Positions 1-64,000 of a stretch of DNA of 64,000 bases are shown here, one piece after another. The stretch is from Escherichia phage EJP2. Made by a program: the position numbers and the translations under genes. Position 1 is the stretch's first letter; each line of letters begins with the position of its first letter. The stretch is taken from sequence record OQ411014.1; one strand, given 5' to 3'. The notes beneath the pieces were generated by a model, which worked only from the letters and a program-made list of their open reading frames with translations, searched no databases and had not been told where the DNA came from.

Positions 1-47
1 ATCGTCGAAATAAATATGAATCCTATATTTAAAACAGGAGTATAATA

Positions 48-605
48 ATGCTACAAGAAATCCAAACACTAATTACACAAATTGAAAACTTCCTACAAGA
101 AAAAGAAGGTTTCAGTGCAGAAGTCCACACTGCTGGTGCAGTACTGAAAGTTCATGAACCATCTGGTAATGAAGTACAGTACGATGGGTATGAACTACTC
201 CTTTACACTCTAGCTTCACGTAAACTCGGTCATGAGATCAAACTAAGCGTAGTGAAAGATGAAAAAGGTAATGATACGTTCCGTATCAATTCAGGTGCTA
301 ATTATGACCTTGATAAATATATTGCAGAAGTAAACAGTACAGTACTGTCTAAAGTGAAAGCTAAAGATGTACACGCAGTAGTAATGAGCCGTCAAACTGG
401 TTCAGTAGAATTCCCGTACTGTATCAATACATTCTTTGAAGGTGGTTCTTGGTTGCGTTATGACGTAACTATGCCTGAAATGCTATATGCAGCTATTCAT
501 GAACTACCAGTAGAAGAACAGTCTGACAAGTCATTCGCGTTTACTAAACTACGTAACATCACTGAAACTCTACGCGTAGAGATTGAAGAATTTCTCAAAA
601 AATAA
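48..605 (+). CDS. hypothetical protein (185 aa)
   Basis: ORF track; AGGAG RBS 5 nt upstream of ATG. Confidence 0.6.
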   Translation: MLQEIQTLITQIENFLQEKEGFSAEVHTAGAVLKVHEPSGNEVQYDGYELLLYTLASRKLGHEIKLSVVKDEKGNDTFRINSGANYDLDKYIAEVNSTVLSKVKAKDVHAVVMSRQTGSVEFPYCINTFFEGGSWLRYDVTMPEMLYAAIHELPVEEQSDKSFAFTKLRNITETLRVEIEEFLKK

Positions 606-614
606 ATAAATTTT

Positions 615-643
615 TGAACATTTCAGAAAAAATGTGATATAAT
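615..643 (+). promoter_or_regulatory. sigma70-type promoter with extended -10 (TTGAAC N17 TGTGATATAAT), upstream of tRNA
   Basis: Conserved TGTGATATAATATAA block, one of 5 near-identical copies in window; followed by hairpin and tRNA. Confidence 0.5.
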
Positions 644-681
644 ATAAGTACAGGAGATGAGAGTTCTCCTGTAACAAATTA

Positions 682-754
682 GCTTGAATAGCTCAGTAGG
701 TAGAGCAGCGTACTTGTAATACGAAGGTCGTGGGTTCAATTCCTGCTTCAAGCA
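682..754 (+). tRNA. tRNA-Thr (anticodon UGU)
   Basis: Acceptor GCTTGAA/TTCAAGC, D-arm GCTC-AGTAGGTA-GAGC, anticodon loop CTTGTAA, T-loop GGTTCAATTCC; CCA not encoded. Confidence 0.75.
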
Positions 755-803
755 TTTATTCATACGATGATAATAAAAAATAAATATAGTCCTTGACAAT
801 CTT

Positions 804-833
804 ACCCAGAATTTGTATTCTGGGTTTTCTTTT
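804..833 (+). terminator. rho-independent terminator
   Basis: Inverted repeat ACCCAGAAT/ATTCTGGGT followed by T-run, immediately after tRNA. Confidence 0.5.
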
Positions 834-855
834 AACTAATCAAAAGGTAAATCCT

Positions 856-1362
856 ATGCAAATGACTTACGAAGATACAATGACTCATCTCAGTACTATT
901 GATATTGAAAAGTTCACTCTAGAAGTCACTACTGGCGACCGCAACAAGAAGATGTGGTACAGTGAATATGAAAATCAAGATGACCTGTATGTTGTGGTTT
1001 CTGATAACAGTTCTTGGGGATTGGTATCAATCACAGTATTCACACCAAATGCTGACAGGACAGTTTTGCATCGCTTCAACCGTTCTATCCATCCTAAGCA
1101 CGAACTGGACGTGATGAAGATTGAATCAATTATGTTCGACTTTGGTGGAAATCGAGATGATAAAGCGGACATTCCAGCAGTGTGCATTCAAAACCTAAGT
1201 ACACTGAAGTCCGAGTCTGATTTCTTCAGTTATATCCTAATGAACAACATCAATGATATCACACATCAGAATATCGTTGACTTCATTGAATTCACTGATA
1301 AACTGTACAGTAAATGGGTAGAACAGTTCGGTGAACCATCTCTAGGAGACGAAGATGAGTGA
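856..1362 (+). CDS. hypothetical protein (168 aa)
   Basis: ORF track 793..1362 trimmed to first ATG with AAAAGG RBS; track start overlaps terminator hairpin; C-terminal ESDFFSYIL resembles FFQ-family motif. Confidence 0.5.
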   Translation: MQMTYEDTMTHLSTIDIEKFTLEVTTGDRNKKMWYSEYENQDDLYVVVSDNSSWGLVSITVFTPNADRTVLHRFNRSIHPKHELDVMKIESIMFDFGGNRDDKADIPAVCIQNLSTLKSESDFFSYILMNNINDITHQNIVDFIEFTDKLYSKWVEQFGEPSLGDEDE

Positions 1363-1753
1363 AATTCAATCCAGATGTTATATAGTACTGAACAAAGAAC
1401 TCCAGATGCCTGTCGGTAAAGCTGCTGTACAGGTTGGTCATGCGATGGATCAGGTTTGGGGAGCTTTCTGTAATATGACTTCACAACCTACCATGTCTTT
1501 GTTGGGTAACCTGAAGTACATGGAAGACTTTTCCAAATGGAAAGATGAAGGCCGTAAGAAAGTAACACTAGGTGCTAAGAACGACGCTGAAGTTCAGAAA
1601 TATAAAGACAAACTCCTTGATGCGGGTTATACTGTGTTTGATATCGTTGACTACGGAATCAATTTCTTTGATGGTGTAACCAGGACTGGTATTGTAGTCT
1701 TTCCAGTACTGAATGCTATCCCTGAACTAAAACGTTTACAGGTATTCAAATGA
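1355..1753 (+). CDS. PTH2-like peptidyl-tRNA hydrolase domain protein (132 aa)
   Basis: Motif YIVLNKELQMPVGKAAVQVGHA resembles PTH2 core (hydrophobic strand, GK, AAQ..HA); ATGA start/stop overlap with upstream gene. Confidence 0.45.
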   Translation: MSEIQSRCYIVLNKELQMPVGKAAVQVGHAMDQVWGAFCNMTSQPTMSLLGNLKYMEDFSKWKDEGRKKVTLGAKNDAEVQKYKDKLLDAGYTVFDIVDYGINFFDGVTRTGIVVFPVLNAIPELKRLQVFK

Positions 1754-2172
1754 AAGAATTCAACCGTGCAGAAGCTATAGCAGAGGCTTATGAGAAAATA
1801 AAAAACAATGAACTACGTCTAAAGGATGTATCTCAATCGAATAAGCATCGTGAAACTGACGAATACGTATTGTATTTCAACCCATATGCTGGTATGTTCA
1901 TCTTACGAATGAACTTGGAATGTATCCTAGATACAAACCAGAATCGGACGTTATTATTTTATTCGACCGATGAACCAGATGAAGCATTAGTACCAGTACA
2001 GAACGGTATTGGTAGTATAATTGTACACCCTTATAAATCTGAAGCTGAACAGTTCCAGCGTACTTTGGTCGAAGAAGATTATCCTGACGTTGAAACTATG
2101 AAACAGATTCAATATATTGTTGAGTATATCAAAAGTACACATTTCGGAGGCGTTGATGCAGTACAAGAATAG
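1750..2172 (+). CDS. hypothetical protein (140 aa)
   Basis: ORF track; ATGA overlap coupling; C-terminal SEAEQFQRTL motif. Confidence 0.55.
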   Translation: MKEFNRAEAIAEAYEKIKNNELRLKDVSQSNKHRETDEYVLYFNPYAGMFILRMNLECILDTNQNRTLLFYSTDEPDEALVPVQNGIGSIIVHPYKSEAEQFQRTLVEEDYPDVETMKQIQYIVEYIKSTHFGGVDAVQE

Positions 2173-2521
2173 TTATGCAGTCCAACTCGGTACTATGCTG
2201 GCTTTTACTTTCCTGAACGGTTTGTTTGCGTTCTTTTCTCCTAGTACTCCAGAAGTACCAGCACAGGGTCAAGAGAAAGTACTCAAGATTGAAACCATCC
2301 GTCAGGACGTAACTTCATACACTCAAGTACTGAAAAAAGCCGATACGTGTGAAAAGGTAACTGATAAAGAAGAAAATGATTTCTATAGTTGTCCTGACAG
2401 TACTACTATTTCTATGGTACACTGGACTCGTAGCCCAGACCGTAAAGGTGTGGTAACAAAATACTATGACAAGGATAAGAACCTGTTGATGATCTATGGT
2501 CATCCAGATGATGTTTACTAA
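2156..2521 (+). CDS. hypothetical protein (121 aa)
   Basis: ORF track 2117..2521 trimmed to ATG preceded by GGAGG RBS. Confidence 0.5.
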   Translation: MQYKNSYAVQLGTMLAFTFLNGLFAFFSPSTPEVPAQGQEKVLKIETIRQDVTSYTQVLKKADTCEKVTDKEENDFYSCPDSTTISMVHWTRSPDRKGVVTKYYDKDKNLLMIYGHPDDVY

Positions 2522-2530
2522 GGATATATA

Positions 2531-2968
2531 ATGCAATCGTACTTCTCCATAATTACCGATGTACTCGCAGAATATACCAAACCAGAACAGTGGACACCAA
2601 TCAAATCAGACGTAGGAGAACGCTACCGTTCAGTACTGGATGGTAGTGTCCTGTCCGTATCTAAAGCATTGATTGGTTTCATTTACAATGGAGACAAAGC
2701 ACCAGTCCAGGAATTGACTGTGAACATTTTTGCTAACTCGAAGTATTTTGTATTTGTAGACCGAAATACCAACAAGGTAAGAATAAAGACCAGTGTAGGC
2801 AGTACTGGTATTATGACGAGTAAGGTACTTTCTACTTTAGTTCCAGAAGATGAGTATTTTCATTTGATGTTATCATCTGATGAGTATCAGATATCCTATG
2901 AAGAGCAGAAAATATTGCTCAAGTTCATAGAACTCGCAAAGTGGGTACACAGGAAAAATAATCGTTGA
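2531..2968 (+). CDS. hypothetical protein (145 aa)
   Basis: ORF track; TAAGGA RBS. Confidence 0.55.
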   Translation: MQSYFSIITDVLAEYTKPEQWTPIKSDVGERYRSVLDGSVLSVSKALIGFIYNGDKAPVQELTVNIFANSKYFVFVDRNTNKVRIKTSVGSTGIMTSKVLSTLVPEDEYFHLMLSSDEYQISYEEQKILLKFIELAKWVHRKNNR

Positions 2969-2993
2969 CAGTACTGCTAGGTGTGCGTATAAT
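2965..2993 (+). promoter_or_regulatory. sigma70-type promoter TTGACA N17 TATAAT
   Basis: Canonical hexamers; CAGTACTG abuts the -35 box. Confidence 0.55.
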
Positions 2994-3033
2994 CACTTCA
3001 TAACGAAATGACTTAAACACTAAGGATAACAAA

Positions 3034-3291
3034 ATGGCTAACGTAATTCGCTCTCGAAAAATGATTTCTGGTAATGACCTTCGCTATCTGAACAACTATC
3101 GTCATCTTTTCCAACAGTTGGGTAAAGGTGTAAAAATGACAGTTATTACTGATACCATTCAGGAACCAGAAGACATTTTTGGTGTATACCATAGCGTTTT
3201 CAATCTATACATCAAACGTGGTCTGTTGGACGTAAAAACCATTACTGAAATTGATGACGATGAAGAGATGGAGAATTTCCTGTTCCTATGA
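3034..3291 (+). CDS. hypothetical protein (85 aa)
   Basis: ORF track; AAGGA RBS. Confidence 0.55.
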   Translation: MANVIRSRKMISGNDLRYLNNYRHLFQQLGKGVKMTVITDTIQEPEDIFGVYHSVFNLYIKRGLLDVKTITEIDDDEEMENFLFL

Positions 3292-3434
3292 ATAATGAAT
3301 ACTACAATGCTTGGTCGTACGCGATTGAGTTTTGTCGAAAGTACGACATATGCACGAGTACTAAAAAATGGAAACCGTGGGAGAAGAAATTCTTCTTCTA
3401 CATTTATAACCTAAAATTAGGACGTGAGGTGTAA
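3288..3434 (+). CDS. small hypothetical protein (48 aa)
   Basis: Uninterrupted frame ATG..TAA found by hand; ATGA overlap with upstream stop; below ORF-track size cutoff. Confidence 0.35.
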   Translation: MNNEYYNAWSYAIEFCRKYDICTSTKKWKPWEKKFFFYIYNLKLGREV

Positions 3435-3457
3435 CATGCCAGAACCATTAGATCGTG

Positions 3458-3973: not shown

Positions 3974-4488
3974 AAGTAGAACCGTTCAGTACTGAATTTA
4001 TGCTGGTGGACGTATCACTCTCCAATTTCAAGCGTACTATGCGAAATTCTGGAGTGCACTATTATCGTTTTAAGAATAAACGATTAGTGCATGATACGAT
4101 TCATAACACTGTAAAACTTGTATGTGAATATCAGATTGATGAAGATACTCACACAAACCAAGTTCTGCACTTCAATTACAAAACTAACGAGTTGACTGCA
4201 CTCTTTACTGTAGTTCACAATAAAGTCAAGGAAAAATTCGTAGGTAAATATAAGTTCACGCTAGACGAATGTGAGTACTTCTTACTAAGTTTATCTGCGG
4301 AGAAATATTTTCCTAGTCTACAAGATTTAGTTCAAATCAATTCAGTAGTTCAAGAATTGAAAGAAGATGTGAAGTCTTGGGATGAAGAGATGACCGCTGC
4401 CGCATATAAGCGTCGTGTTGAGAGTTTTCATAAATGGGAAATGAAAACAGGTCGGAAGTTATTTCATTATAATAGTAAGGCAAAATAA
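3970..4488 (+). CDS. hypothetical protein (172 aa)
   Basis: ORF track; ATGA overlap coupling. Confidence 0.55.
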   Translation: MKVEPFSTEFMLVDVSLSNFKRTMRNSGVHYYRFKNKRLVHDTIHNTVKLVCEYQIDEDTHTNQVLHFNYKTNELTALFTVVHNKVKEKFVGKYKFTLDECEYFLLSLSAEKYFPSLQDLVQINSVVQELKEDVKSWDEEMTAAAYKRRVESFHKWEMKTGRKLFHYNSKAK

Positions 4489-4742: not shown

Positions 4743-4760
4743 TATATAAAAGGATTTTAT

Positions 4761-5618
4761 ATGCAACCAATAACAGTACTTAGTCTGTTCAATGGAATGT
4801 CAGGCGGGATGCTTGCTTTAAACGAAGCACAAATACCCGTACATAAGTACTATTCATCTGAGATAGATAAGTTCGCAAACGCTGAGTCCCAAGCGAATTT
4901 CCCTGATATAGTCCAGTTGGGTGATGTTACCAAGTGGAAGGAATGGGATATTGAATGGGACAAAATAGATCTACTCATGGGTGGATTTCCATGCCAGGCA
5001 TGGTCTGTGGCTGGTAAACAGGGTGGAACGAACGATCCACGTGGAATGCTATTCCATACTATGGTTGATATCTATCATCATATTAAGGCGTTGAATCCGA
5101 ACTTGAAAGTACTGTTCGAGAACGTCAAGATGAAAGAAGACTTCAAGCAATACATTGATGGTATCTTAGGAATGACACCTAAGATGATCAACTCTCAAAA
5201 CTACACTGCTCACTATCGCCAGCGATATTACTGGTACTCATCTGATAAGTACTTTATCCCGCCTCCTATCATGTCTTCCCCTTCACTGCAATCAATTCTT
5301 GATAGTGATTACACTGATAGAGAGAAATCGTACTGTATAGATGCGAACTATTGGAAGGGTGGAGATCCTAACCAGTACTTCAACAAGTCCAGGCGGCAGA
5401 TGGTGTTCATGGACCCTGATATTGATAGAGAGTACCTTATTGAAAAGGGTATAAACAAGATTGACTATCGTAAGCTAAGTGTAGTAGAATGTTGTCGTTG
5501 TCAGGGAGTGCCGGATGATTACTTTAAAGTGTCCAGCAATACCCAAGCGTACAAGATGTTAGGTAACGGGTGGACTATCCCAGTCATCGCTCACTTATTA
5601 CGTGATATATTCTTTTGA
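4761..5618 (+). CDS. DNA (cytosine-5)-methyltransferase
   Basis: C5-MTase motifs in order: I LFNGMSGG, IV GFPCQAWS, VI ENV, C-terminal GNGWTIPV; RBS AAAGGA. Confidence 0.8.
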   Translation: MQPITVLSLFNGMSGGMLALNEAQIPVHKYYSSEIDKFANAESQANFPDIVQLGDVTKWKEWDIEWDKIDLLMGGFPCQAWSVAGKQGGTNDPRGMLFHTMVDIYHHIKALNPNLKVLFENVKMKEDFKQYIDGILGMTPKMINSQNYTAHYRQRYYWYSSDKYFIPPPIMSSPSLQSILDSDYTDREKSYCIDANYWKGGDPNQYFNKSRRQMVFMDPDIDREYLIEKGINKIDYRKLSVVECCRCQGVPDDYFKVSSNTQAYKMLGNGWTIPVIAHLLRDIFF

Positions 5619-5648
5619 TATAATACTATGACTTACAAAGGAGAGCAT

Positions 5649-8485: not shown

Positions 8486-8576
<91 letters not shown>

Positions 8577-8689: not shown

Positions 8690-8764
8690 CGGGGTATAGC
8701 TTAATGGATAAAGCAGTAACCTTCTAAGTTATTGATCTAAGTTCGATTCTTAGTATCCCGACCA
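8690..8764 (+). tRNA. tRNA-Arg (anticodon UCU)
   Basis: Acceptor CGGGGTA/TATCCCG, anticodon stem GTAAC/GTTAT loop CTTCTAA, T-loop GTTCGATTC, encoded CCA. Confidence 0.75.
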
Positions 8765-11101: not shown

Positions 11102-11191
11102 AGAAGGTTGGCAGAGCGGCTAAATGCACTCGCCTACTAAGCGAGCACTCGCTCCGGCGAGTCGAGGGTTCGAATCCCCCACCTTCTGCCA
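11102..11191 (+). tRNA. type II tRNA with unusual anticodon loop (apparent anticodon ACU; identity uncertain)
   Basis: Acceptor AGAAGGT/ACCTTCT, T-loop GGTTCGAATCC, long variable arm, encoded CCA; anticodon stem CTCGC/GCGAG with loop CTACTAA. Confidence 0.6.
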
Positions 11192-12445: not shown

Positions 12446-12540
<95 letters not shown>

Positions 12541-12695: not shown

Positions 12696-12769
12696 GGCCC
12701 TTTAGCTCAGTTGGTTAGAGCAGAGAACTCATAATTCTTTGGTCACTGGTTCGAGTCCAGTAGGGGCCA
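12696..12769 (+). tRNA. tRNA-Met (anticodon CAU; could equally be a lysidine-modified tRNA-Ile)
   Basis: Acceptor GGCCCTT/AGGGGCC, D-arm AGCTCAGTTGGTTAGAGC, anticodon loop CTCATAA, T-loop GGTTCGAGTCC; CCA not encoded. Confidence 0.8.
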
Positions 12770-14840: not shown

Positions 14841-14941
<101 letters not shown>

Positions 14942-18700: not shown

Positions 18701-18728
18701 TTGACAACGCATTCAGTACTGATATAAT
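18701..18728 (+). promoter_or_regulatory. sigma70-type promoter TTGACA N16 TATAAT with TCAGTACTGA in spacer
   Basis: Spacer and -10 context TTCAGTACTGATATAAT is identical to the promoter at 38714. Confidence 0.55.
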
Positions 18729-18759
18729 GTCAGTACTTTAACCAACTAAGGGTAATGAA

Positions 18760-23229: not shown

Positions 23230-23366
23230 TAATACCAAAAGAAGAATAACATAATTATATCCCTCCCCTACCTATGGGATTTGGTGTACTAGTACTGCAA
23301 TAGTACTGTACATCCCGTTGGTAGACAACTTGTGTATCTCCTGCACATATAAACATCCGCAAACTG

Positions 23367-26390: not shown

Positions 26391-26537
26391 ATGATTACTG
26401 TACAACTAAATGGTGTAGAACTAGAACTATCTGTCAAGGATGCAGAGAAACTAGTAGAAGAACTGAACTTCAAAATCAACGAGTACTATTACAGTACTAC
26501 TAACGTTCCTGACTCGGAAATCCTATACCGCGAGTAA
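26391..26537 (+). CDS. small hypothetical protein (48 aa)
   Basis: Uninterrupted frame found by hand; strong AAGGAG RBS; below ORF-track cutoff. Confidence 0.45.
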   Translation: MITVQLNGVELELSVKDAEKLVEELNFKINEYYYSTTNVPDSEILYRE

Positions 26538-29049: not shown

Positions 29050-29078
29050 TTGACAGTACTGAATGACTGCTCTATAAT
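29050..29078 (+). promoter_or_regulatory. sigma70-type promoter TTGACA N17 TATAAT
   Basis: Canonical hexamers; CAGTACTG abuts -35. Confidence 0.55.
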
Positions 29079-33758: not shown

Positions 33759-34751
33759 ATGACTGTAAAACAACTCAATCTAGAATCTATTCAAGACGAT
33801 ATCATGGATGAATGTTTTGTAAATGAAAACAATACGTTCGAGCGTATTAGTGAACAGTCACATGACAGTACTGAAGAAGTAGAAGAAAGTACTGATGACG
33901 TAGGTTCTTTCAAGACTTACAACACATCTAGCGTTTTACCAGAAGGTGAGACGAATGAATCTATTATTCGTTTAATCCGTGACGGTATCAATGTGAAGCG
34001 TAACATTGACCTTATCGTACGTAACAACGTAGGCTTAGTATATAGCCAAGCACGTCAGTGTACTTGTAATATCCCATTCCAAGATAAAGCACAGTACGCT
34101 TTTGAAGGTCTAATGCGTGCAATCCATCGTTATGATGTGAATCAGAATATTCTTTTCAGTACTTACGCTACTGTGTCTATTCGCCAAACACTCTATAACT
34201 TTGGTAATGATGAAGTTCGTCTAATCAGTATTCCACGTCACTTGTCAGTGGATAACATCAAGATTCAGAACTACATTGAGAAGCATCGTTCTAAGTTCGG
34301 TCGTACCCCAAGTGAAGATGAAATCAGTACTGCTACTGGCATCAAGTTATCCGCAGTGAAACGTGTAGTGCAGTACATGAACAGTAAGCCAATGAGTTTC
34401 GATACTCCAATGGGTTCTGACAGTACTGAAAACGATATGAGCTTAGTGGATGTAATCCCAGGAACTTCCAATGATTACACACTAAGTGCAGATACAGTTC
34501 AGAAAGCACCACTAGATGTAATTGCATTGGTCATGTCTGAACTACCAGAAGAAGAGCAGTTGCTGATCAATAAGATTCACGGCTTGAATGGACATGAAGA
34601 AAGTACTTTTATTGCTCTAGAGACTGCTGGATTGGTAGATGCGAAGGGTAAGAAGCTAACTAACCGTTGCACTATTCATCGTCGTTACAATGCAATACTG
34701 GATAAGATTCGTAATATTCTAAAAGCACGTGACATTTCATTCGATGACTGA
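33759..34751 (+). CDS. RNA polymerase sigma factor, sigma70 family
   Basis: Region 2 match VGLVYSQARQ..FEGLMRAIHRYD..FSTYATVSIRQT and C-terminal region-4-like helix-turn-helix; AAGGAG RBS. Confidence 0.7.
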   Translation: MTVKQLNLESIQDDIMDECFVNENNTFERISEQSHDSTEEVEESTDDVGSFKTYNTSSVLPEGETNESIIRLIRDGINVKRNIDLIVRNNVGLVYSQARQCTCNIPFQDKAQYAFEGLMRAIHRYDVNQNILFSTYATVSIRQTLYNFGNDEVRLISIPRHLSVDNIKIQNYIEKHRSKFGRTPSEDEISTATGIKLSAVKRVVQYMNSKPMSFDTPMGSDSTENDMSLVDVIPGTSNDYTLSADTVQKAPLDVIALVMSELPEEEQLLINKIHGLNGHEESTFIALETAGLVDAKGKKLTNRCTIHRRYNAILDKIRNILKARDISFDD

Positions 34752-38713: not shown

Positions 38714-38740
38714 AAAAAAGAGTTGACACAGATTTCAGTA
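38714..38740 (+). promoter_or_regulatory. sigma70-type promoter TTGACA N15 TATAAT with TCAGTACTGA in spacer
   Basis: Spacer and -10 identical to promoter at 18701. Confidence 0.5.
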
Positions 38741-38801
38741 CTGATATAATTACTACATCAAGAACGAACTAACTAAAACACTCAAACATAGGATTAAAAA
38801 T

Positions 38802-48860: not shown

Positions 48861-50039
48861 TTATGGTAAATCAAATTCCGTATATGAATATTTGTATACA
48901 CCATCTGGTCCACGACCTGAGTATCGTAATTTACCAGAAGTAGTTATATATGCTGAAGTAATATTACTAGTACTGAATATGTTAAACACTGACTTCATAT
49001 CATTCACTGTACCGTTACCGAATGGTATCAGGTTAAGTTCATTGCCGTTGACACCAGTACTCAATCTTCCTGAAGAATTTGCTCCACAACCATATGCATT
49101 TGATGGGCTAAGAGCAACGTAACCAGTATTACTAGTATAATAACTTAGTAAACCAATAAAATTCTCTGTAGTGGCTATTTCAGTAAAGACTCTAATATTG
49201 ACAGAACTATTCACTCCATTACCTAAGTTTCCAGCATTCTGGCTTCCCGCAGCATATAGATGTGTTTTACCAGTACCGTCACTGTACAATATTGTGAATG
49301 CTGATTCAGTTAGACCAATATCAAAAACACTAAGACCTGGGTCTGGTAGTGGTACTTGTGTTAGCACATTTATTCTTGTATCTGGATGACCAATACCGAG
49401 TTGACCAAATGAGTTTGAACCTGAAACCCAAACACTTAAATCATTTTTTAATATCAGTACTGATGAATTAACAAATTCAACTTTTTGAACATCTGATGTA
49501 AGTTTTGAGAAAGTAGTTAGTGCAAGATAATTACCAGTTGCTAGTTGGCCTTGGTTATTAAAACCGCTTCTATAAAGATCACCATTGTTCATTAATATAT
49601 ATAATGCATATACACCAGCATGAACAGATGTTATTTGATTAAGATTCCCTGTACCTATACCAGCTTCAATAAATGGGGTACAATCAGTATATGATGTCAC
49701 AACTTCAGTAGATGATGTATTGCCAGTTTGAAAGCTACGGCGACCAGTATATAATAATTTTCCATCCATAGTTTTAATGATAACAAAACTTGTGTTTGTA
49801 CACCAAACATCTTGAACATCATCTCTGATTAAAGTCCACTCTAGCTTTTGTTCTGTTGGCTTTCCATCCCCATAGATATAATTATCAACTGTTCCTCCAC
49901 CGATACCATACAATCTGTTATCATCATATAATACCATAAATGCCGGACGAGACGATGCATAAGGTACTAATATTTTTGTAATTTCAGGTAATGAAGGTGC
50001 TTTATTACCATAATTAAGCATTCGTACAAAAGGTAACAT
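48861..50039 (-). CDS. RCC1-like repeat (beta-propeller) protein (392 aa)
   Basis: ORF track; GGAGA RBS on minus strand; repeated G-x-N-x-x-G-Q/N-L-G motifs (GFNNQGQLATG, GSNSFGQLGIG, GSQNAGNLGNG). Confidence 0.65.
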   Translation of the reverse strand: MLPFVRMLNYGNKAPSLPEITKILVPYASSRPAFMVLYDDNRLYGIGGGTVDNYIYGDGKPTEQKLEWTLIRDDVQDVWCTNTSFVIIKTMDGKLLYTGRRSFQTGNTSSTEVVTSYTDCTPFIEAGIGTGNLNQITSVHAGVYALYILMNNGDLYRSGFNNQGQLATGNYLALTTFSKLTSDVQKVEFVNSSVLILKNDLSVWVSGSNSFGQLGIGHPDTRINVLTQVPLPDPGLSVFDIGLTESAFTILYSDGTGKTHLYAAGSQNAGNLGNGVNSSVNIRVFTEIATTENFIGLLSYYTSNTGYVALSPSNAYGCGANSSGRLSTGVNGNELNLIPFGNGTVNDMKSVFNIFSTSNITSAYITTSGKLRYSGRGPDGVYKYSYTEFDLP

Positions 50040-50148
50040 AATTAAATCTCCGTCTAATAATTATAATGTATTTACCAAAAAGGACTTGACAGTACTGAAC
50101 AGTACTAGTAGAATTGTATCCAAGATAACTCACTAAGGAATATCCAAA

Positions 50149-51950: not shown

Positions 51951-52016
51951 AGTGTTTGACAATCTTAGTATCATCTAGTATGATGTTTGTACTATAATGA
52001 TATAAGGAAATACAAA

Positions 52017-52262
52017 ATGAAATTTATTAGTGCAATTATTCTTTCGATGACTTTATTGGTTGGATGTTCAACTGATTTCATGAAAGAAGCATACGTTGGT
52101 GAAGTGAATGGACGTACAATCGTCTTCTTCAAAGATATCCAACGTAACGGTATGCAGTACTACACTCCGCAGTTTGCATCTGTATGCCGTGATATGTTCG
52201 GGGTAAGTTCACCATGTAGGATAAAAGAAACTGCAATCAAAAACATTCGTCCATACAAATAA
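52017..52262 (+). CDS. lipoprotein (81 aa)
   Basis: ORF track 51987..52262 (TTG) trimmed to ATG after TAAGGAAA RBS; signal MKFISAIILSMTLLVGCS with lipobox LVGC. Confidence 0.55.
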   Translation: MKFISAIILSMTLLVGCSTDFMKEAYVGEVNGRTIVFFKDIQRNGMQYYTPQFASVCRDMFGVSSPCRIKETAIKNIRPYK

Positions 52263-58284: not shown

Positions 58285-58286
58285 TT

Positions 58287-58634: not shown

Positions 58635-58637
58635 TAA

Positions 58638-59323: not shown

Positions 59324-59324
59324 T

Positions 59325-60019: not shown

Positions 60020-60174
60020 AAAATAGTTTCAAATAACCCAGTCCTAATGGCTGGGTTTTGCTCTTGAATGTATTAAATACATTTTTAGACAATATCTTTC
60101 TTGTCTAATGCTTAAAAAAACAAGAGGAAATAAATGATAAATTTTGACTTCTATTTGATTGTTGAGGACTGTAT

Positions 60175-60477: not shown

Positions 60478-60481
60478 CATA

Positions 60482-60508
60482 AAGCCCCTCAATCGAGGGG
60501 CTTTTTTT
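60482..60508 (+). terminator. rho-independent terminator
   Basis: AAAGCCCCTC-AATC-GAGGGGCTTTTTTT hairpin; TTGACA promoter immediately downstream. Confidence 0.6.
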
Positions 60509-60565
60509 ATTGACACAATCCCTTAGACTATGCTATGATGTATCAAATTCATTGGAGACGCAACG

Positions 60566-61243
60566 ATGCATAAGAAGACACAAAAGAAGAAATCCCGTAC
60601 ATTCAAACATTACTTACACAGTTTTAAGTTCTGGCGGTACAGGTCTAAGTTATATGAGAAGATGTATGATGTTGGGCGTGAACCTTGGCAGTACTATTCG
60701 ACTTACTCATTGGCAGTTCGAGAAAACGATTATGGCATTTCTAAGAAAGTACATAAGCTATTAGAAGCCTGTAATGTACGTTTGGACTATGCAGAAGTAC
60801 TACATGACTTTGTGTACATGTACATGGCAAAACCAAATGACCAAATGCACTACACAAGTGGTGAATTTATACACAGCAATACACAGTACGAATTCAATAT
60901 CATGGGGGATAAATCCTTTATGATCCGTGAGTACAATCGTGCTGATCCACAGGTGTATATTTCGTACAAGAAAGGTTCAGTAAAGGTAGAACTAAAGTAC
61001 GCATACAGTGCTAGACCTAAAAATAATGATGAGCTACAAGAAGCTCTCACTAAGCACGTACAATCTGAACTAACCGAAGCGGAGTTATTTCAGTACACAA
61101 TTATGTACGAACAGTTCGAGAGACTCATTTTCATGTTGAATCTGCTTAAACCTTTATGTATATTCAAAGATACTAAAGTAAATGCCTATTCGTTGTACAC
61201 ACTATTCAGTACTCACGAGACTTACAAAGGACAATTACAATGA
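60566..61243 (+). CDS. large FFQ-family paralog (225 aa)
   Basis: ORF track; GGAGA RBS; motif LTEAELFQYTIMYEQ. Confidence 0.6.
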   Translation: MHKKTQKKKSRTFKHYLHSFKFWRYRSKLYEKMYDVGREPWQYYSTYSLAVRENDYGISKKVHKLLEACNVRLDYAEVLHDFVYMYMAKPNDQMHYTSGEFIHSNTQYEFNIMGDKSFMIREYNRADPQVYISYKKGSVKVELKYAYSARPKNNDELQEALTKHVQSELTEAELFQYTIMYEQFERLIFMLNLLKPLCIFKDTKVNAYSLYTLFSTHETYKGQLQ

Positions 61244-61860
61244 AGCTAACAGCCTTACAGAAGCACTATCAACAAACGTTCAATTTCTACCGAACTCGAT
61301 ATCATCGCACACACGGAGCAACAATCTATCGCCCTCGTAGATTGGGACGTGTACGTAAAGGAGGTAAGTTCTTCAAAAAGATCTGTAACGAACTGAACAT
61401 CAAATGTCATGGACTGTACGGTTCTAATTCTAATGGCAAAGTAAACGTAAATGAAAACCTTCGCAGTGGTACACGTATTGATACGGTTGCTGGGAATATC
61501 TACACATCCGAAAGCCGGATGTATTTCCCTAAAGGTAAGTCCGAAGATTCTCGCTATGTATTGTGTTATGATTCTTGTGAGTCACCGCTTAGTATCGAAG
61601 ATATCATGGTACTTGATTATAAGTTCGAATACCAGGATGATTCGGTCACTAGTGAAGAACTAACCGACATCGTTCAGAAGCACCTAAAAGGTACTCTAAC
61701 GGAGGCAGAACTATTTGTAGCCCTACTATACCATGAAGAGGTAATGCAGCTTCTGGCTGGTGCTGAGATGCTTTATAAGCTATTTGGATACGTACACAAA
61801 GAGCAAGTATCACTCATTGACATTTATGTTTCAGTACTGAAGAGTGAGCAATCTAAATGA
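61240..61860 (+). CDS. large FFQ-family paralog (206 aa)
   Basis: ORF track; motif LTEAELFVALLYHEE. Confidence 0.6.
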   Translation: MKLTALQKHYQQTFNFYRTRYHRTHGATIYRPRRLGRVRKGGKFFKKICNELNIKCHGLYGSNSNGKVNVNENLRSGTRIDTVAGNIYTSESRMYFPKGKSEDSRYVLCYDSCESPLSIEDIMVLDYKFEYQDDSVTSEELTDIVQKHLKGTLTEAELFVALLYHEEVMQLLAGAEMLYKLFGYVHKEQVSLIDIYVSVLKSEQSK

Positions 61861-62531
61861 AGATGAACCGTTTTGGGAATCACTACAACAAGTACTTCAA
61901 ACATATGCACTACGTACAAGCAGAATCTACTACTTCTGCGTATGTATATAACCGTAATGCAACCAGACGGACTCATATGCGTAGGTCGTTTTCTGCTGTA
62001 CTGAAGAAGTTCATGCGAGCTAAAGGATTTATGTTCAAAAAAGATACACGGTCTGGATGGTCTTGGGAGAACCATAACACATCACCATCATCTGTGTATA
62101 ATATAGGTCTAACATATTTCAGTTTTATGATTGATGATATTCCTTGTTTGGTTTCGTATTATACATATCCATATACCTACAATGTCACTGTATATGTGAA
62201 TTATATATCAGTCGATGATGATGAAAAATTACTGAAACAAAACGTTATTCAAGTTGGTATATCAAATGAAGTATACGCCGCCCAGGATAAAGAGTTGGAG
62301 GATATTCTTAGGAAAAAGTTACCAAAGTACCATGAAGTACTGACGGATGAAAAGATGTTTCAGTACAGTACAATGATACCGAATGCAGATGTATATTGGA
62401 AAGCTAACAATATATATCATAATATTACACAAATGATAATGAGTAGTTATCATGAGAACATACATCACCCATACAATAAAAAGAATAAAACAATCATTCA
62501 TTTATTGAATTGTATCTTGAAGGAATTATAA
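61857..62531 (+). CDS. large FFQ-family paralog (224 aa)
   Basis: ORF track; motif LTDEKMFQYSTM. Confidence 0.6.
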   Translation: MKMNRFGNHYNKYFKHMHYVQAESTTSAYVYNRNATRRTHMRRSFSAVLKKFMRAKGFMFKKDTRSGWSWENHNTSPSSVYNIGLTYFSFMIDDIPCLVSYYTYPYTYNVTVYVNYISVDDDEKLLKQNVIQVGISNEVYAAQDKELEDILRKKLPKYHEVLTDEKMFQYSTMIPNADVYWKANNIYHNITQMIMSSYHENIHHPYNKKNKTIIHLLNCILKEL

Positions 62532-62537
62532 AAGAAA

Positions 62538-62566
62538 AATGCCAGTACATATTTTAGTACTGGCAT
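62538..62566. terminator. bidirectional rho-independent terminator
   Basis: AATGCCAGTAC-ATATTTTA-GTACTGGCATT hairpin between convergent genes. Confidence 0.55.
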
Positions 62567-62570
62567 TTTG

Positions 62571-63701
62571 TTAAAATGGTAAATCTATTTGTTTGGTAAT
62601 CGTCATACCTAAAGGTATTGAACACATTGACATATTTTTCCCATTTAGATTGGAAGGCGGCTGTCCGTTCATCCATATATTGGTATCGTCATAGAATGTA
62701 CTCCACCACGTAGAACCACCTTCTATGTGAATATTTTGATTAAAATCAGCGAATTGGCATTCTTGAAAAACTTCAAAAAACGGAATAGATGATAAACTAC
62801 TACTAGTAAATGGTGTATATCCTGTTGCCATTAACTTATTCGTATCTGAATTTACTAAAAAGATAACATTACCTGCATTGTATGGTACATATTTGGGATA
62901 TAAATTACTCATATCACCAATAGGGAAGTTAATATTAAATATTTTACTATGCGTACCCGTTCCTGAAAGTGTAGTACCAGTTACGTATATTTTATTATCA
63001 GTTGTACCCATAATAAACCCAATACCAAACCCAGAACAAAATGTAATGTCGTATGAAACATTATCAAATAGTTGAACAAACGTAGTTACATCACCTGCTG
63101 GACTTTGTATTTGTAAACTATTGTTTGCACCTGCTCCCCAAACAGTTCCGTTACTTTTCACTTTGAATAAAGTATCTCCTATATAGTGACCATATATGCT
63201 ATCAACTTCAGTATCAAGTTCTGTCCATTGTGACACAAAGTTTTTATGCCCTAAACCTAAACACCCATTACGATTAAGCCCTCTACCGTACAATGTACCA
63301 TCATTCATCAATACAAATACTGTATATCCACATAACATTTTTTTAATTTGTGTAACGTCGATACCATTAAAATACCCACTCCAATCTGCATAACCTTGTT
63401 GCATTGTCGAAGAATTTGTAAATGCTTGTGTTGGCCCTGAACCATATATTTTACCACCTTTAATAATGACTGAAAACGATCCCAACCACACATCTTGAAC
63501 ATCCTGAGCAATTGTTTTCAATTCACCATATGCAGTTAAGGGAGTACTTTGCCCTGAACTATATGTTGAATCTTCTCCGTGTGCATATAATGTTCCATCT
63601 TGTGTTAGAATCATTTCTAAGTAAACAGCACTTACACTTTTCTTTATTTTATTAACTTCTATTTTATTTCCGTACTTCAACATCCTTGCAAAAGGTAACA
63701 T
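62571..63701 (-). CDS. RCC1-like repeat (beta-propeller) protein (376 aa), paralog of 48861..50039
   Basis: ORF track; shared N-terminus MLPFARMLKYGNK vs MLPFVRMLNYGNK; motif GLNRNGCLGLG; GGAGA RBS on minus strand. Confidence 0.65.
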   Translation of the reverse strand: MLPFARMLKYGNKIEVNKIKKSVSAVYLEMILTQDGTLYAHGEDSTYSSGQSTPLTAYGELKTIAQDVQDVWLGSFSVIIKGGKIYGSGPTQAFTNSSTMQQGYADWSGYFNGIDVTQIKKMLCGYTVFVLMNDGTLYGRGLNRNGCLGLGHKNFVSQWTELDTEVDSIYGHYIGDTLFKVKSNGTVWGAGANNSLQIQSPAGDVTTFVQLFDNVSYDITFCSGFGIGFIMGTTDNKIYVTGTTLSGTGTHSKIFNINFPIGDMSNLYPKYVPYNAGNVIFLVNSDTNKLMATGYTPFTSSSLSSIPFFEVFQECQFADFNQNIHIEGGSTWWSTFYDDTNIWMNGQPPSNLNGKNMSMCSIPLGMTITKQIDLPF

Positions 63702-64000
63702 GATAATCTCCTATCGATCAAATTTAAAATCTGTTATGTGTGTCCAAACATGTGGTAATGGTGTACTCAATGGTGTAAATCCAGCAGGGTCTGACAAAGT
63801 ACTACCACATGCGTACATAAATTGATTACCAGTACAATCCATTATAGCATAAGAACGTGTAGCTGTACCACATTTGAATCCAACTGCACTGCTTGGTGTT
63901 GGTAATACTTCAAATGTTAGTGCATTTGATGAACCACCACCATCCTTTGTACCTGCGATGTATAGTACTCCATTATTATCAATGATTAAGTTGGTCCAAT
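63677..64000 (-). CDS. hypothetical protein, partial (5' end beyond window)
   Basis: Uninterrupted minus-strand frame from window edge to a stop ~25 nt inside the start of the 62571..63701 gene; G/T/S-rich like neighbours. Confidence 0.4.

What the first reader, a model, noticed from the sequence alone, without database searches (positions are those of the whole stretch)
1..64000. Massive over-representation of the palindrome AGTACT, usually as CAGTACTG
By hand tally I find roughly 220 AGTACT hexamers in 64 kb, where base composition predicts about 20. Around 100 of them are the octamer CAGTACTG or the 10-mer TCAGTACTGA, where fewer than one is expected. They occur in all three reading frames (coding Ser-Thr, Val-Leu or Gln-Tyr), in intergenic DNA, and repeatedly in promoter spacers or abutting -35 boxes (2965, 18701, 29050, 38714, 50082). 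Palindromes are normally avoided in phage genomes, so positive selection for one points to a DNA-level function. Candidates are a binding site for a phage regulator or nucleoid protein, a site-specific nicking, packaging or modification target (possibly linked to the methyltransferase at 4761), or a self-marking signal.
Basis: seen in the sequence. Interest (0 to 1): 0.85.

Follow-up and report, generated by a model that had tools for sequence, protein, structure and literature searches.

The report
Highly iterated AGTACT palindrome in phages
This giant-phage DNA carries the 6-letter palindrome AGTACT about every 270 bases (11 times more than chance), a selected feature shared by its whole phage clade and by an unrelated family of small temperate phages but nearly absent from their bacterial hosts, so it most likely marks phage DNA for a reader that is still unidentified.

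Summary
AGTACT occurs 240 times in 64 kb (21 expected). CAGTACTG occurs 84 times (0.7 expected). A protein-preserving synonymous shuffle still gives only 58 and 8 in coding DNA.

The window comes from a Rak2/121Q-like jumbo phage. The same hexamer is the top-scoring word in six relatives on five host genera. It is absent from PA5oct, XacN1, T4 and alia.

Sites sit in all frames and in intergenic DNA, and their flanks extend the palindrome to TTCAGTACTGAA. They distort codon and dipeptide usage. They are conserved above background (73% vs 41%).

A scan of viral contigs found the same extended palindrome in an unrelated family of ~25-34 kb temperate phages. In one prophage, 65 sites stop at the host junction.

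Every AGTACT-rich genome also has zero GCGC. Host DNA is the reverse.

The C5 methyltransferase at 4761 is not linked. Promoter overlap covers about 3% of sites. The SlmA site shares the core but not the flanks.

Best reading: a selected, protein-read "self" mark of phage DNA, analogous to cyanobacterial HIP1. I found no prior description.

The parts
1..64000 (.). Genome-wide array of 240 AGTACT sites (mean spacing 267 bp). 84 are CAGTACTG. The consensus extends to the 12-bp palindrome TTCAGTACTGAA.
   Evidence: Searches give every start coordinate (140, 341, 892 ... 63798, 63964); one search lists the 84 octamers. There are 10-19 sites per 4 kb. The spacing CV is 0.85 vs 0.99 +/- 0.06 for random placement. 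Flanks: C at -1 in 55%, G at +1 in 54%, T at -3 in 44%, A at +3 in 48%.
3985..3996 (.). Example of the full 12-bp palindrome TTCAGTACTGAA. The other copies start at 14897, 36351, 37370, 44026 and 61830.
2965..2993 (+). Perfect sigma-70 consensus promoter whose -35 box overlaps a site: TTGAC[AGTACT]G...TATAAT.
18701..18737 (+). Perfect consensus promoter with a site directly upstream of the -10 box ([AGTACT]GATATAAT, which supplies the TG of an extended -10). A second site lies 11 bp downstream, at 18732.
29050..29078 (+). Perfect consensus promoter, TTGAC[AGTACT]GAATGACTGCTCTATAAT.
38723..38750 (+). Perfect consensus promoter with a site abutting the -10 box ([AGTACT]GATATAAT).
50086..50114 (+). 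Promoter-like site (1 mismatch) holding two sites 10 bp apart: TTGAC[AGTACT]GAAC[AGTACT]AGTAGAAT.
23291..23307 (.). Intergenic pair of sites 11 bp apart (one helical turn). Similar 11-bp pairs lie at 26482/26493, 26823/26834 and 60409/60420.
   Evidence: Four pairs sit at exactly 11 bp, where about 0.9 is expected per distance.
11102..11191 (+). Phage tRNA-Ser with anticodon ACT, cognate to the AGT codon that the motif inflates. Probable co-adaptation, not part of the DNA signal itself.
   Evidence: ARAGORN. AGT is 29% of Ser codons, and 59% of Ser-Thr dipeptides are written AGTACT. 121Q carries the same tRNA.
4761..5618 (+). C5 cytosine DNA methyltransferase. Examined as the proposed modifier of the motif and rejected. 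The gene itself holds 5 sites.
   Evidence: PMC3622015.

Best explanation
AGTACT is a highly iterated palindrome of phage genomes. It is a short double-stranded DNA word kept at about one copy per 200-400 bp by natural selection.

It is read by a two-fold symmetric (dimeric) sequence-specific factor. The preferred full site is TTCAGTACTGAA.

The word is about 60 times denser in phage DNA than in host DNA. The same genomes contain no GCGC at all, while host DNA is full of it. I therefore propose that the pair forms a sequence code distinguishing phage from host DNA without base modification. AGTACT is the positive mark, bound by a reader that recruits or protects.

Shown here:
- the excess;
- its symmetry;
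- its effect on codons and proteins;
- conservation of sites;
- its distribution across the clade;
- its independent presence in a second phage family;
- the sharp phage/host contrast.

Inferred:
- that a protein reads it;
- that the purpose is self/non-self discrimination.

For: (1) Strength of the excess:
- 11x over composition; 3.6-7.6x (hexamer) and 9-49x (octamer) over codon-aware nulls.

(2) Graded, symmetric flanks typical of a dimeric DNA-binding protein:
- C(-1)/G(+1) at 55%/54% and T(-3)/A(+3) at 44%/48%.
- The two halves contribute roughly independently: 35% of sites have both, 30% expected from independence.

(3) The force is strong enough to rewrite proteins:
- Ser-Thr is written AGTACT 59% of the time vs 14% expected.
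- Val-Leu is written GTA-CTN 57% vs 25%, preceded by a codon ending in A 75% vs 29%.
- Dipeptides ST, VL and QY are 1.6-1.9x over expectation, while TS, LV and YQ are 1.15, 0.77 and 0.68.

(4) Clade trait, independent of host:
- It is the top-scoring hexamer (first or second by z-score, beaten only by an overlapping word) in A4, 121Q, Hallingskeid, RaK2, GAP32 and XaC1, at about 2.4-5.1 sites per kb.
- It is absent from PA5oct, XacN1, T4 and alia.

(5) Selection on individual sites:
- 121Q vs A4 (81% nt identity): 73% of sites conserved vs 41% of all hexamers, p = 8e-5.
- Window vs relatives through protein-guided alignment: 27-32% vs 8-18%.
- Xu et al. used the same argument for HIP1 (PMC5861425).

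(6) No single-mismatch neighbour is depleted; all are at or above 0.9x. This argues against a repair-driven conversion.

(7) Spacing is slightly more even than random in 5 of 6 genomes: CV 0.82-0.91 vs 0.99.

(8) The same extended palindrome occurs in an unrelated family of ~25-34 kb temperate phages:
- Pooled, 694 sites in 160 kb, with C(-1) 61% and G(+1) 59%.
- In prophage L252 there are 65 sites in 16.6 kb and none in 7.1 kb of adjoining host DNA.
- Accessory genes lack sites while core genes hold 4-10 per kb.

(9) Host contrast:
- An E. coli 50-kb sample has 3 sites, 11.6 expected.

(10) Coupled negative mark:
- GCGC is 0 in the window (73 expected), 0 in 253 kb of Rak2-like DNA and 0 in 182 kb of the temperate family (342 expected).
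- 25 of 25 AGTACT-rich viral loci have GCGC = 0, vs 2 of 51 control loci.
- The host flank has 69 GCGC in 7.1 kb.
Against: - No reader was found. No DNA-binding domain or further methyltransferase is recognisable among the 119 window proteins or in the temperate phage.
- No informative gene is shared by the two phage families in the DNA I hold; only a lysozyme, a small lipoprotein and mobile HNH endonucleases are shared.
- The self/non-self function is inference from contrast alone.
- Absence of GCGC may be ordinary restriction avoidance with no link to AGTACT. The AGTACT/GCGC association rests on only two independent phage families.
- Site conservation does not strictly exclude a sequence-specific biased repair process.
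- Host counts come from small samples (50 kb and 7 kb).
Confidence: 0.4

Rival explanations
1. HIP1-type epigenetic target. An orphan methyltransferase (phage N6-adenine or N4-cytosine type, or a host enzyme) modifies AGTACT or its GTAC core. The dense methyl marks, not a binding protein, carry the function: strand discrimination for repair, timing of replication or packaging, or blanket protection from ScaI- and RsaI-type restriction.
For: - HIP1 (GCGATCGC), the closest known analogue, contains the targets of two orphan methyltransferases (PMC4390886; bioRxiv 10.64898/2026.06.24.733823).
- Rak2-like phages encode two to three methyltransferases (PMC5259590; PMC11895373; PMC3622015).
- These genomes purge most other G/C-containing 6-bp palindromes yet tolerate about 1,300 ScaI sites. 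This suggests the sites are shielded.
Against: - The only methyltransferase in the window is a C5 enzyme of the M.HhaI/DNMT3 type, and its RaK2 orthologue goes with m5CpG.
- An orthologue-bearing phage, alia, has no AGTACT.
- The temperate family has the motif but no recognisable methyltransferase.
- A modification target gives no reason for enrichment by itself.
- Graded flank preferences out to +/-3 are unusual for a Type II methyltransferase.
Confidence: 0.2
2. Neutral drive. A sequence-specific biased repair or mutation process (like very-short-patch repair) keeps converting near-cognate words into AGTACT. The word itself has no function.
For: - The motif accumulates with residence time: recently acquired accessory genes lack it.
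- All single-mismatch neighbours are mildly enriched, as a mutation-decay halo would be.
- GTAC is formally the double C-to-T product of GCGC, which is absent.
Against: - No neighbour word is depleted. The transition neighbours AATACT and AGTATT are at 0.89x and 1.22x, whereas a converting drive should drain them.
- GTGC and GCAC, the intermediates from GCGC, are only 1.15-1.46x, and CpG is 0.8-0.9.
- A pool of about 73 GCGC cannot yield 659 GTAC.
- Sites are conserved well above background.
- The process would have to exist in two unrelated phage families yet spare the host chromosome next to the prophage.
Confidence: 0.08
3. Hijack of the host nucleoid-occlusion protein SlmA. Its binding site GTGAGTACTCAC has AGTACT at its centre. 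Phage DNA would titrate or activate SlmA and so block FtsZ and cell division.
For: - The core hexamer is identical to positions 4-9 of the SBS consensus (PMC3020112).
- SlmA occurs in the enterobacterial hosts (my own knowledge).
- Many phages block division (my own knowledge).
Against: - SlmA needs G1 and T2 and a purine at position 3. Phage sites have C at position 3 in 55% and T at position 1.
- There is no full SBS in any AGTACT-rich locus that I checked (window, 121Q, Hallingskeid, GAP32 and the prophage locus L252).
- GTRAGTACT occurs at 4 of 240 sites (1.7%, 3.1% expected).
- RAGTACTY occurs at 10% of sites vs 25% expected, so it is avoided.
- SlmA also accepts AGCGCT cores, which are absent here.
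- The trait persists in a Xanthomonas phage.
Confidence: 0.05
4. Operator of a phage regulator of early promoters. The many other copies would be incidental or would act as a sink.
For: 5 of 12 perfect sigma-70 consensus promoters contain a site (background 9%, p = 0.003). The site sits in one of two fixed registers, TTGAC[AGTACT] or [AGTACT]GnTATAAT.
Against: - Only about 8 of 240 sites lie in promoters.
- Density is uniform along genes, and RaK2 structural genes are equally rich.
- Part of the overlap is a sequence coincidence: TTGACA shares its final A with the site, and AGTACTG supplies the TG of an extended -10.
- A regulator would be titrated by about 1,300 genomic copies.
Confidence: 0.05
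5. By-product of coding. Codon bias, favoured peptides or the phage tRNA set produce the word.
For: The phage carries tRNA-Ser(ACT) and tRNA-Thr(TGT), which match AGT and ACN codons.
Against: - The word occurs in all three frames and is denser in intergenic DNA, 5.0 vs 3.6 per kb.
- It survives shuffles that keep proteins and codon usage.
- Its flanks are palindromic.
- It is present in a prophage that has no such tRNAs in the DNA examined.
Confidence: 0.01

Closest known systems
HIP1, the highly iterated palindrome GCGATCGC of cyanobacteria (Xu, Lawrence & Durand 2018, PMC5861425; Elhai 2015, PMC4390886)
   Same: - A short palindrome, over-represented ten-fold or more across the genome.
- Present in genes in all frames and between genes.
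- Sites are conserved between genomes more than control words, which was taken as evidence for selection rather than biased repair.
- No gene-level or RNA-level role is apparent.
- The function is still unknown.
   Different: - A different word (6-bp core, 12-bp extended) in viruses rather than cellular chromosomes.
- No cognate methyltransferase was found. The one in the window does not fit, and the temperate family has none.
- It is coupled to a total absence of GCGC.
- It is much denser in phage than in host DNA, so it can discriminate two DNAs inside one cell.
- The 10-90 kb periodicity reported for HIP1 could not be tested in 64 kb.
DNA uptake sequences (USS of Pasteurellaceae, DUS of Neisseriaceae; PMC1939737)
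   Same: A short word, hundreds to thousands of copies per genome, found in coding DNA in all frames. It works as a 'self DNA' tag read by a protein.
   Different: - USS and DUS are not palindromes. They are 9-12 nt long and often occur as inverted pairs in terminators.
- They serve natural transformation of competent bacteria.
- Here the word is itself a palindrome and sits in phage genomes. No uptake machinery is implied.
Chi (GCTGGTGG) and KOPS, the polar over-represented motifs of bacterial chromosomes (PMC3784561 for Chi in phages)
   Same: An over-represented short word that tells a DNA-processing machine (RecBCD, FtsK) that the DNA is self, or which way to go.
   Different: - Chi and KOPS are asymmetric and strand-skewed. 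AGTACT is a palindrome and cannot carry polarity.
- Its density is 10-20 times higher.
- E. coli Chi itself is present 3+1 times in the window (0.3 expected). That is a separate, small effect.
SlmA-binding sequence GTGAGTACTCAC of E. coli (Tonthat et al. 2011, PMC3020112)
   Same: The central hexamer is identical. It is a palindrome read by a dimeric helix-turn-helix protein and is scattered over a genome.
   Different: - The flank positions critical for SlmA (G1, T2, purine 3) are not met and are in part avoided.
- E. coli has about 50 SBS per 4.6 Mb by my recollection of Tonthat et al. 2011 (not checked here), against about 3.75 sites per kb in the window.
Restriction-site avoidance in phage genomes
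   Same: The same genomes show extreme avoidance of other palindromes: GCGC, CTGCAG, CAGCTG, GGATCC, GCATGC, GAGCTC and others are absent or nearly absent. A few exceptions occur in RaK2, and AAGCTT is purged only in the window and the temperate family.
   Different: AGTACT (the ScaI site) behaves in the opposite way, at 11-14x enriched.
Base-modification self-marks of T-even phages (hydroxymethylcytosine, which lets phage nucleases and Alc act on host DNA only; my own knowledge)
   Same: In the proposed logic, phage and host DNA are told apart inside the infected cell.
   Different: Here the distinction would be written in sequence composition (a word gained and a word lost), not in chemistry. 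This is untested.

Membership tests
Highly iterated palindromes (HIP1-type) | A short palindrome over-represented at least ten-fold genome-wide relative to composition | tested here: met
   AGTACT 240 vs 21.4 (11x); CAGTACTG 84 vs 0.7. 7-15x in six relatives. 13.6x in the temperate family.
Highly iterated palindromes (HIP1-type) | Occurs inside genes in all reading frames and between genes, with no gene-level pattern | tested here: met
   Frame counts 79/42/87 and 32 intergenic sites. The metagene profile is flat apart from dips at start and stop codons.
Highly iterated palindromes (HIP1-type) | Sites conserved between related genomes more than control words (selection rather than replenishment) | tested here: met
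   73% vs 41% between 121Q and A4. 27-32% vs 8-18% between the window and relatives.
Highly iterated palindromes (HIP1-type) | Cognate orphan methyltransferases that recognise sub-words of the palindrome | tested here: inconclusive
   The window's only methyltransferase does not fit. The temperate family has none recognisable. Other methyltransferases of Rak2-like phages lie outside the window and their specificity is unknown.
Highly iterated palindromes (HIP1-type) | Long-range (10-90 kb) periodic distribution along the chromosome | not testable with these tools
   The window is 64 kb. At short range there is only a slight evenness (CV 0.85) and no periodicity.
SlmA-binding sites (SBS) | 12-bp palindrome GTRAGYRCTYAC, with G1, T2, A4 and G5 required (PMC3020112) | tested here: not met
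   0 full matches. GTRAGTACT at 4 of 240 sites. Purine at position 3 in 27% of sites vs 53% background.
Polar chromosome motifs (Chi, KOPS) | An asymmetric word with strand skew | tested here: not met
   The word and its extended consensus are palindromic.
DNA uptake sequences (USS/DUS) | A non-palindromic 9-12-mer, often as inverted pairs forming terminators, in naturally competent bacteria | tested here: not met
   The core is a palindrome. Information content falls to about 0 beyond +/-3. Sites are not concentrated after stop codons. The host genomes sampled lack the word.
Sigma-70 promoter element or operator | Copies confined to promoter regions at a fixed distance from the start site | tested here: not met
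   About 8 of 240 sites lie in promoter-like contexts. Enrichment within strong promoters is real but minor.
Rak2/121Q-like jumbo phages (identity of the window) | Synteny and protein similarity to Asteriusvirus, Alcyoneusvirus, Mimasvirus and Erwinia phage Hallingskeid | tested here: met
   The 506-aa virion protein is 61-68% identical to A4 and 121Q. The sigma factor is 60% identical and the methyltransferase 85% identical to Hallingskeid. In separate local tblastn searches, 40 window proteins hit the held 121Q region, 31 the Hallingskeid region and 21 the A4 region; a pooled search of all five relatives' regions gave 91.

The most novel reading that the evidence does not exclude
Two unrelated phage lineages of Enterobacterales, the ~350 kb Rak2-like jumbo phages and a family of ~25-34 kb temperate phages, have converged on the same two-part sequence code. 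AGTACT sits about every 250 bp and GCGC is absent, the exact inverse of host DNA. This would let one machinery (a GCGC-directed nuclease plus an AGTACT-binding protector or recruiter, phage- or host-encoded) tell phage from host DNA without any base modification.
Probability: 0.25. Interest if true: 0.9.

Novelty: new variant of a known kind. Interest (0 to 1): 0.82.

Why it matters
- Phage genomes are known for avoiding palindromes. A palindrome under strong positive selection, to the point of reshaping codon use, dipeptide content and possibly the phage tRNA set, is the reverse of that rule.
- It has not, as far as my searches of open-access text show, been described for Rak2-like phages or any other phage.
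- It gives cyanobacterial HIP1, unexplained for 30 years, a viral counterpart in culturable coliphages (121Q, PBECO4, RaK2, GAP32). There, pull-downs, ScaI digests, methylomes and recoding are straightforward.
- If the AGTACT-rich, GCGC-free signature is a self/non-self code, it would be a new way for viruses with unmodified DNA to spare their own genome. It would explain how these jumbo phages manage without a nucleus or hypermodified bases.
- In practice, the signature is a simple k-mer marker for finding such phages and prophages, and recently acquired genes within them.

Tried and rejected
1. Methyltransferase link. PDB and phage searches, the RaK2 paper and the alia control all pointed away, so I rejected it.
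2. A reader inside the window. Pfam and PHROG scans of 119 proteins found only a C5 methyltransferase, a sigma factor, RCC1-like proteins, a PTH2 hydrolase, a kinase and virion proteins.
3. Genes shared between the temperate family and Rak2-like DNA. I found only a lysozyme, a small lipoprotein and a widespread mobile HNH endonuclease family, none informative.
4. SlmA. The core matches but the flanks do not.
5. Origin by deamination of GCGC. The intermediates are not enriched, CpG is near normal, and the pool is too small.
6. A bacterium with a genome-wide AGTACT excess. It is inconclusive.
7. Short-range periodicity. None found beyond a codon-phase signal.
8. Link to gene boundaries. The profile is flat, with dips at start and stop codons.
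9. Literature. Searches for AGTACT or CAGTACTG with phage, jumbo or methyltransferase terms found primers, ScaI assays and giant-virus methylomes. Nothing concerned this excess.
10. Source of the window. Megablast found only a 400-bp match to Erwinia phage Hallingskeid, so the phage itself is not in the collection.

Full report
**Observation.** The window holds 240 AGTACT, 84 CAGTACTG, 19 TCAGTACTGA and 6 TTCAGTACTGAA. AGTACT is the most frequent hexamer of all. Base composition predicts 21.4, 0.7 and 0.07 for the first three.

Among the 64 palindromic hexamers, AGTACT stands alone at 11.2x; the next is 2.2x. Twenty-six are completely absent, including AAGCTT (21 expected) and all GCGC-containing words.

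I called 140 genes with a simple greedy ORF rule (90% coding, 124 on the + strand) and built two codon-aware nulls:
- Shuffling synonymous codons within each gene keeps every protein and the codon usage, which is itself inflated by the motif. It gives 58.5 +/- 6.9 AGTACT in coding DNA against 208 observed (z = 21.6), and 8.0 CAGTACTG against 73.
- Shuffling codon order gives 27.5 and 1.5.

**Anatomy.**
- Sites are spread evenly, at 10-19 per 4 kb. The spacing CV is 0.85 against 0.99 +/- 0.06 for random placement. CV is 0.82-0.91 in four of the five relatives examined and 0.99 in the fifth (121Q). I found no periodicity.
- Sites use all frames and are somewhat denser between genes, 5.0 vs 3.6 per kb.
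- A metagene profile is flat except for dips at the ribosome-binding site and start codon and just before stop codons.
- The flanks extend the palindrome: C at -1 (55%), G at +1 (54%), T at -3 (44%), A at +3 (48%). The consensus is TTCAGTACTGAA, with no information further out.
- The enrichment is nested. GTAC outside AGTACT is about 2.2x, NGTACT and AGTACN about 3x, AGTACT 11x and CAGTACTG more than 100x.
- No single-mismatch neighbour is depleted.

**Effect on coding.**
- 59% of Ser-Thr dipeptides are written AGTACT (14% expected).
- 57% of Val-Leu are written GTA-CTN (25% expected). In 75% of those cases the preceding codon ends in A (29% expected).
- The dipeptides ST, VL and QY are 1.6-1.9x over expectation, while their reverses are 1.15, 0.77 and 0.68. 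The DNA word therefore shapes the proteome.
- The phage carries a tRNA-Ser with anticodon ACT (11102-11191) and a tRNA-Thr(TGT). 121Q has the same Ser tRNA. This looks like co-adaptation to the inflated AGT and ACT codons.

**What the window is.** A 506-aa virion protein is 61-68% identical to proteins of E. coli phages A4, 121Q and PBECO4 and about 60 other Rak2-like jumbo phages. The sigma-70-like protein (33759-34751) is 60% identical, and the C5 methyltransferase 85% identical, to Erwinia phage Hallingskeid. At the nucleotide level only 400 bp match anything in the phage collection. The window is thus a new lineage of the Rak2-like clade, nearest to Hallingskeid.

**A clade trait.** AGTACT is the top-scoring hexamer (first or second by z-score, beaten only by an overlapping word), and CAGTACTG is at or near the top of the octamers, in six relatives:

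| Phage | Host genus | AGTACT per kb |
|---|---|---|
| A4 | Escherichia | 2.8 |
| 121Q | Escherichia | 2.8 |
| Hallingskeid | Erwinia | 3.7 |
| RaK2 (a structural-gene region) | Klebsiella | 2.4 |
| GAP32 | Cronobacter | 5.1 |
| XaC1 | Xanthomonas | 31 sites in 12 kb |

It is absent from the more distant jumbo phages PA5oct (0 in 12 kb) and XacN1 (0). It is also absent from T4 (2, 4 expected) and from phage alia (0, 5 expected). T4 and PA5oct even avoid GTAC.

**Selection on sites.**
- Between 121Q and A4 (13.6 kb aligned, 81% identity), 73% of AGTACT sites are conserved against 41% of all hexamers, p = 8e-5.
- Through protein-guided alignments of the window to Hallingskeid, 121Q and A4, 27-32% of sites lie at the exact orthologous position, against 8-18% for hexamers in general.
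- So individual sites are under purifying selection. About 70% still turn over at deep divergence while density is kept.
- This is the argument Xu et al. used to conclude that HIP1 is selected rather than replenished by biased repair (PMC5861425).

**A second, unrelated family.** I scanned IMG/VR for CAGTACTG-N(1-30)-CAGTACTG. Besides the records of 121Q, RaK2 and GAP32, it returned a set of ~25-34 kb contigs (GC 37-45%) with 3-5 AGTACT per kb.
- They encode a lambda-type portal, a GpA-type terminase, an HK97-type capsid, tail proteins and a large serine recombinase. They are temperate phages unrelated to the jumbo clade.
- The family is deep, at 34-97% protein identity among members, and all members are AGTACT-rich.
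- Pooled, 694 sites in 160 kb show the same flanks: C(-1) 61%, G(+1) 59%, T at -3/-4, A at +3/+4.
- One member is a prophage in a 4.78-Mb chromosome contig (GCA_029892245.1, locus L252). Its flank (mdtG-lpxL-trhO-yceI-yceJ-solA-bssS-dinI order) is 77% identical to E. coli. The host is therefore an Enterobacterales species other than Escherichia.
- In L252 the prophage part has 65 AGTACT in 16.6 kb (5.1 expected). The adjoining 7.1 kb of host DNA has none.
- Within the phage, accessory or mobile genes (HNH endonuclease, LRR protein, two unknown ORFs) have no sites. Core genes have 4-10 per kb. The word accumulates with residence time in the lineage.

**A coupled negative signature.** Every AGTACT-rich genome lacks GCGC completely:
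- window: 0 (73 expected);
- six Rak2-like regions pooled: 0 in 253 kb;
- temperate family: 0 in 182 kb (342 expected).

The controls are normal: PA5oct 5/6, XacN1 29/52, T4 15/16, alia 11/17. Host DNA is rich in GCGC: 342 in the 50-kb E. coli sample and 69 in the 7.1-kb prophage flank.

Among the scanned viral loci, 25 of 25 genuinely AGTACT-rich ones have GCGC = 0, against 2 of 51 others. The Fisher p is 4e-18, but only two phage families are phylogenetically independent.

GTGC and GCAC are only 1.15-1.46x and CpG is 0.8-0.9. GCGC was therefore removed by selection, not by methyl-cytosine decay into GTAC.

At the L252 junction the two words switch within about 200 bp. On the phage side there are 65 AGTACT and 0 GCGC. 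On the host side there are 0 AGTACT and 69 GCGC.

(a) The methyltransferase at 4761-5618.
- It is a 285-aa C5 enzyme (Pfam PF00145). It is closest to M.HhaI and to DNMT3 catalytic domains.
- Its RaK2 orthologue (60% identity) belongs to a phage whose DNA was shown by bisulfite sequencing to carry m5CpG (PMC3622015).
- A 52% orthologue lies in phage alia, which has no AGTACT.
- The temperate family has no recognisable methyltransferase. So there is no link.

(b) Promoters.
- The window has 12 perfect TTGACA-N16-18-TATAAT promoters, all on the + strand. Five contain a site, either as TTGAC[AGTACT] or as [AGTACT]GnTATAAT (background 9%, p = 0.003).
- This is real, and it suggests that whatever binds the word could also occlude early promoters. 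It concerns about 3% of sites. Part of it is sequence compatibility: the shared A of the -35 box and the TG of an extended -10.

**Other candidates examined.**
- SlmA. The binding site of this E. coli nucleoid-occlusion protein is GTGAGTACTCAC (PMC3020112), so the core is identical. But SlmA needs G1, T2 and a purine at position 3. Phage sites prefer T, T/A and C at those positions. There is no full SBS, and RAGTACTY is under-represented, 10% vs 25%.
- Chi, KOPS and uptake sequences are asymmetric words.
- Coding artefacts are excluded.

**Most likely mechanism.** The symmetric, graded flanks and roughly independent half-sites indicate a two-fold symmetric sequence reader. So does the purifying selection on sites with maintenance of density, the presence in every genome region, and the insensitivity to host genus. 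A modification enzyme with a strict hexamer, or a mutational process, fits these features less well.

The roughly 60-fold phage/host contrast, the stop at the prophage boundary, the lack of sites in newly acquired genes and the mirror-image behaviour of GCGC suggest that the word marks DNA as phage.

I commit to this reading at about 0.4. It is a selected, dense recognition site that lets a protein act on (protect, recruit to, or organise) phage DNA specifically. The selected DNA-level element is shown. The protein reader and the self/non-self purpose are inferred.

**Comparison and novelty.** The closest known phenomenon is HIP1 of cyanobacteria. HIP1 shows the same kind of excess, frame independence and site conservation, and its function is still unknown (PMC5861425, PMC4390886). 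The differences are:
- the word itself;
- the viral setting;
- the lack of a cognate methyltransferase so far;
- the coupling to GCGC loss;
- the contrast with a co-resident host genome.

None of the Rak2-like phage papers I could search mentions AGTACT, and broader searches found nothing on it. Paywalled papers, such as the GAP32 genome paper, could not be checked. I class it as a new variant of a known kind, of high interest.

Noticed in passing
window 1-64000; also L001-L006, L085-L127, L252: GCGC is completely absent from the window (0, 73 expected) and from every other AGTACT-rich genome examined (0 in 253 kb of Rak2-like DNA, 0 in 182 kb of the temperate family). It is at normal levels in AGTACT-poor phages and abundant in host DNA (69 in the 7.1-kb prophage flank). 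It is not explained by CpG decay (GTGC and GCAC 1.15-1.46x, CpG 0.8-0.9).
   Followed up: partly
L085-L092, L096-L098, L105, L108-L127 (IMG/VR contigs of ~25-34 kb); L252 1-16600 (prophage in GCA_029892245.1): An unrelated family of temperate phages (lambda-type portal and terminase, serine recombinase) carries the same extended AGTACT palindrome at 3-5 per kb. Their accessory genes lack it. No repressor, replication gene or methyltransferase is recognisable by Pfam.
   Followed up: partly
window 11102-11191 (also 682-754, 8487-8576, 8690-8764, 12451-12540, 12696-12769): Six tRNA genes, including an unusual tRNA-Ser with anticodon ACT (cognate to AGT) next to a standard tRNA-Ser(GCT), and a tRNA-Thr(TGT). 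121Q has the same Ser(ACT) tRNA. They may compensate for codons inflated by the motif.
   Followed up: no
window 35483, 39676, 47098, 53242, 53977, 54808, 56204, 56647, 56941 (starts of GACTTCGGTC): Nine copies of a cassette, AAAGGnTTGACTTCGGTCAnCCTTTTTnnTATnAT. A G+C-rich hairpin with a TTCG loop and a T-run (terminator-like) holds a -35 box (TTGACT) in its 5' arm and is followed by a -10 box. It resembles the promoter-early stem-loop (PeSL) cassettes of T4-type phages (recalled from memory, not checked).
   Followed up: no
window, + strand: 2965, 11058, 15030, 17354, 18701, 19934, 25154, 29050, 32196, 33491, 38723, 50917: Twelve perfect TTGACA-N16-18-TATAAT promoters, all on the + strand and none on the - strand. 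This is an unusually pure set of consensus host-type early promoters.
   Followed up: partly
window 4761-5618: The phage keeps a C5 methyltransferase most similar to M.HhaI (which targets GCGC), although its own genome has no GCGC. Either the specificity differs (m5CpG was reported for RaK2) or its substrate is not the phage genome.
   Followed up: partly
window 4002, 19499, 57950 (+), 42915 (-): E. coli Chi (GCTGGTGG) occurs 3 times on the + strand and once on the - strand, against 0.3 expected per strand. The numbers are small.
   Followed up: no
window 51987-52262: A 91-aa predicted lipoprotein (LVGCS lipobox) is 38-40% identical to ORFs in two AGTACT-rich ~20-34 kb viral contigs, L117 and L110 (only weakly related to the characterised prophage). 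Together with a generic lysozyme match to RaK2, it is one of only two proteins found shared between the AGTACT-rich small-phage contigs and Rak2-like DNA in the sequences held. It could be a spanin or a superinfection-exclusion protein.
   Followed up: no
window 48861-50039 (-) and 62571-63701 (-): RCC1-repeat (beta-propeller) proteins on the minus strand. Homologues in A4 and GAP32 are annotated 'DNA condensation protein' or 'regulator of chromosome condensation' purely from the repeat name. Nothing here links them to DNA or to the motif.
   Followed up: no
window, whole: Other palindromes besides GCGC are purged: AAGCTT 0/21, CTTAAG 1/21, CTGCAG, CAGCTG, CCATGG, GGTACC, GGATCC, GCATGC, GTCGAC, CTCGAG and GAGCTC all 0/7; TTAA 0.27x; GATC 0.5x. 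AGTACT itself is under-represented in the E. coli sample (3 vs 11.6) and in phages alia, PA5oct and XacN1.
   Followed up: partly
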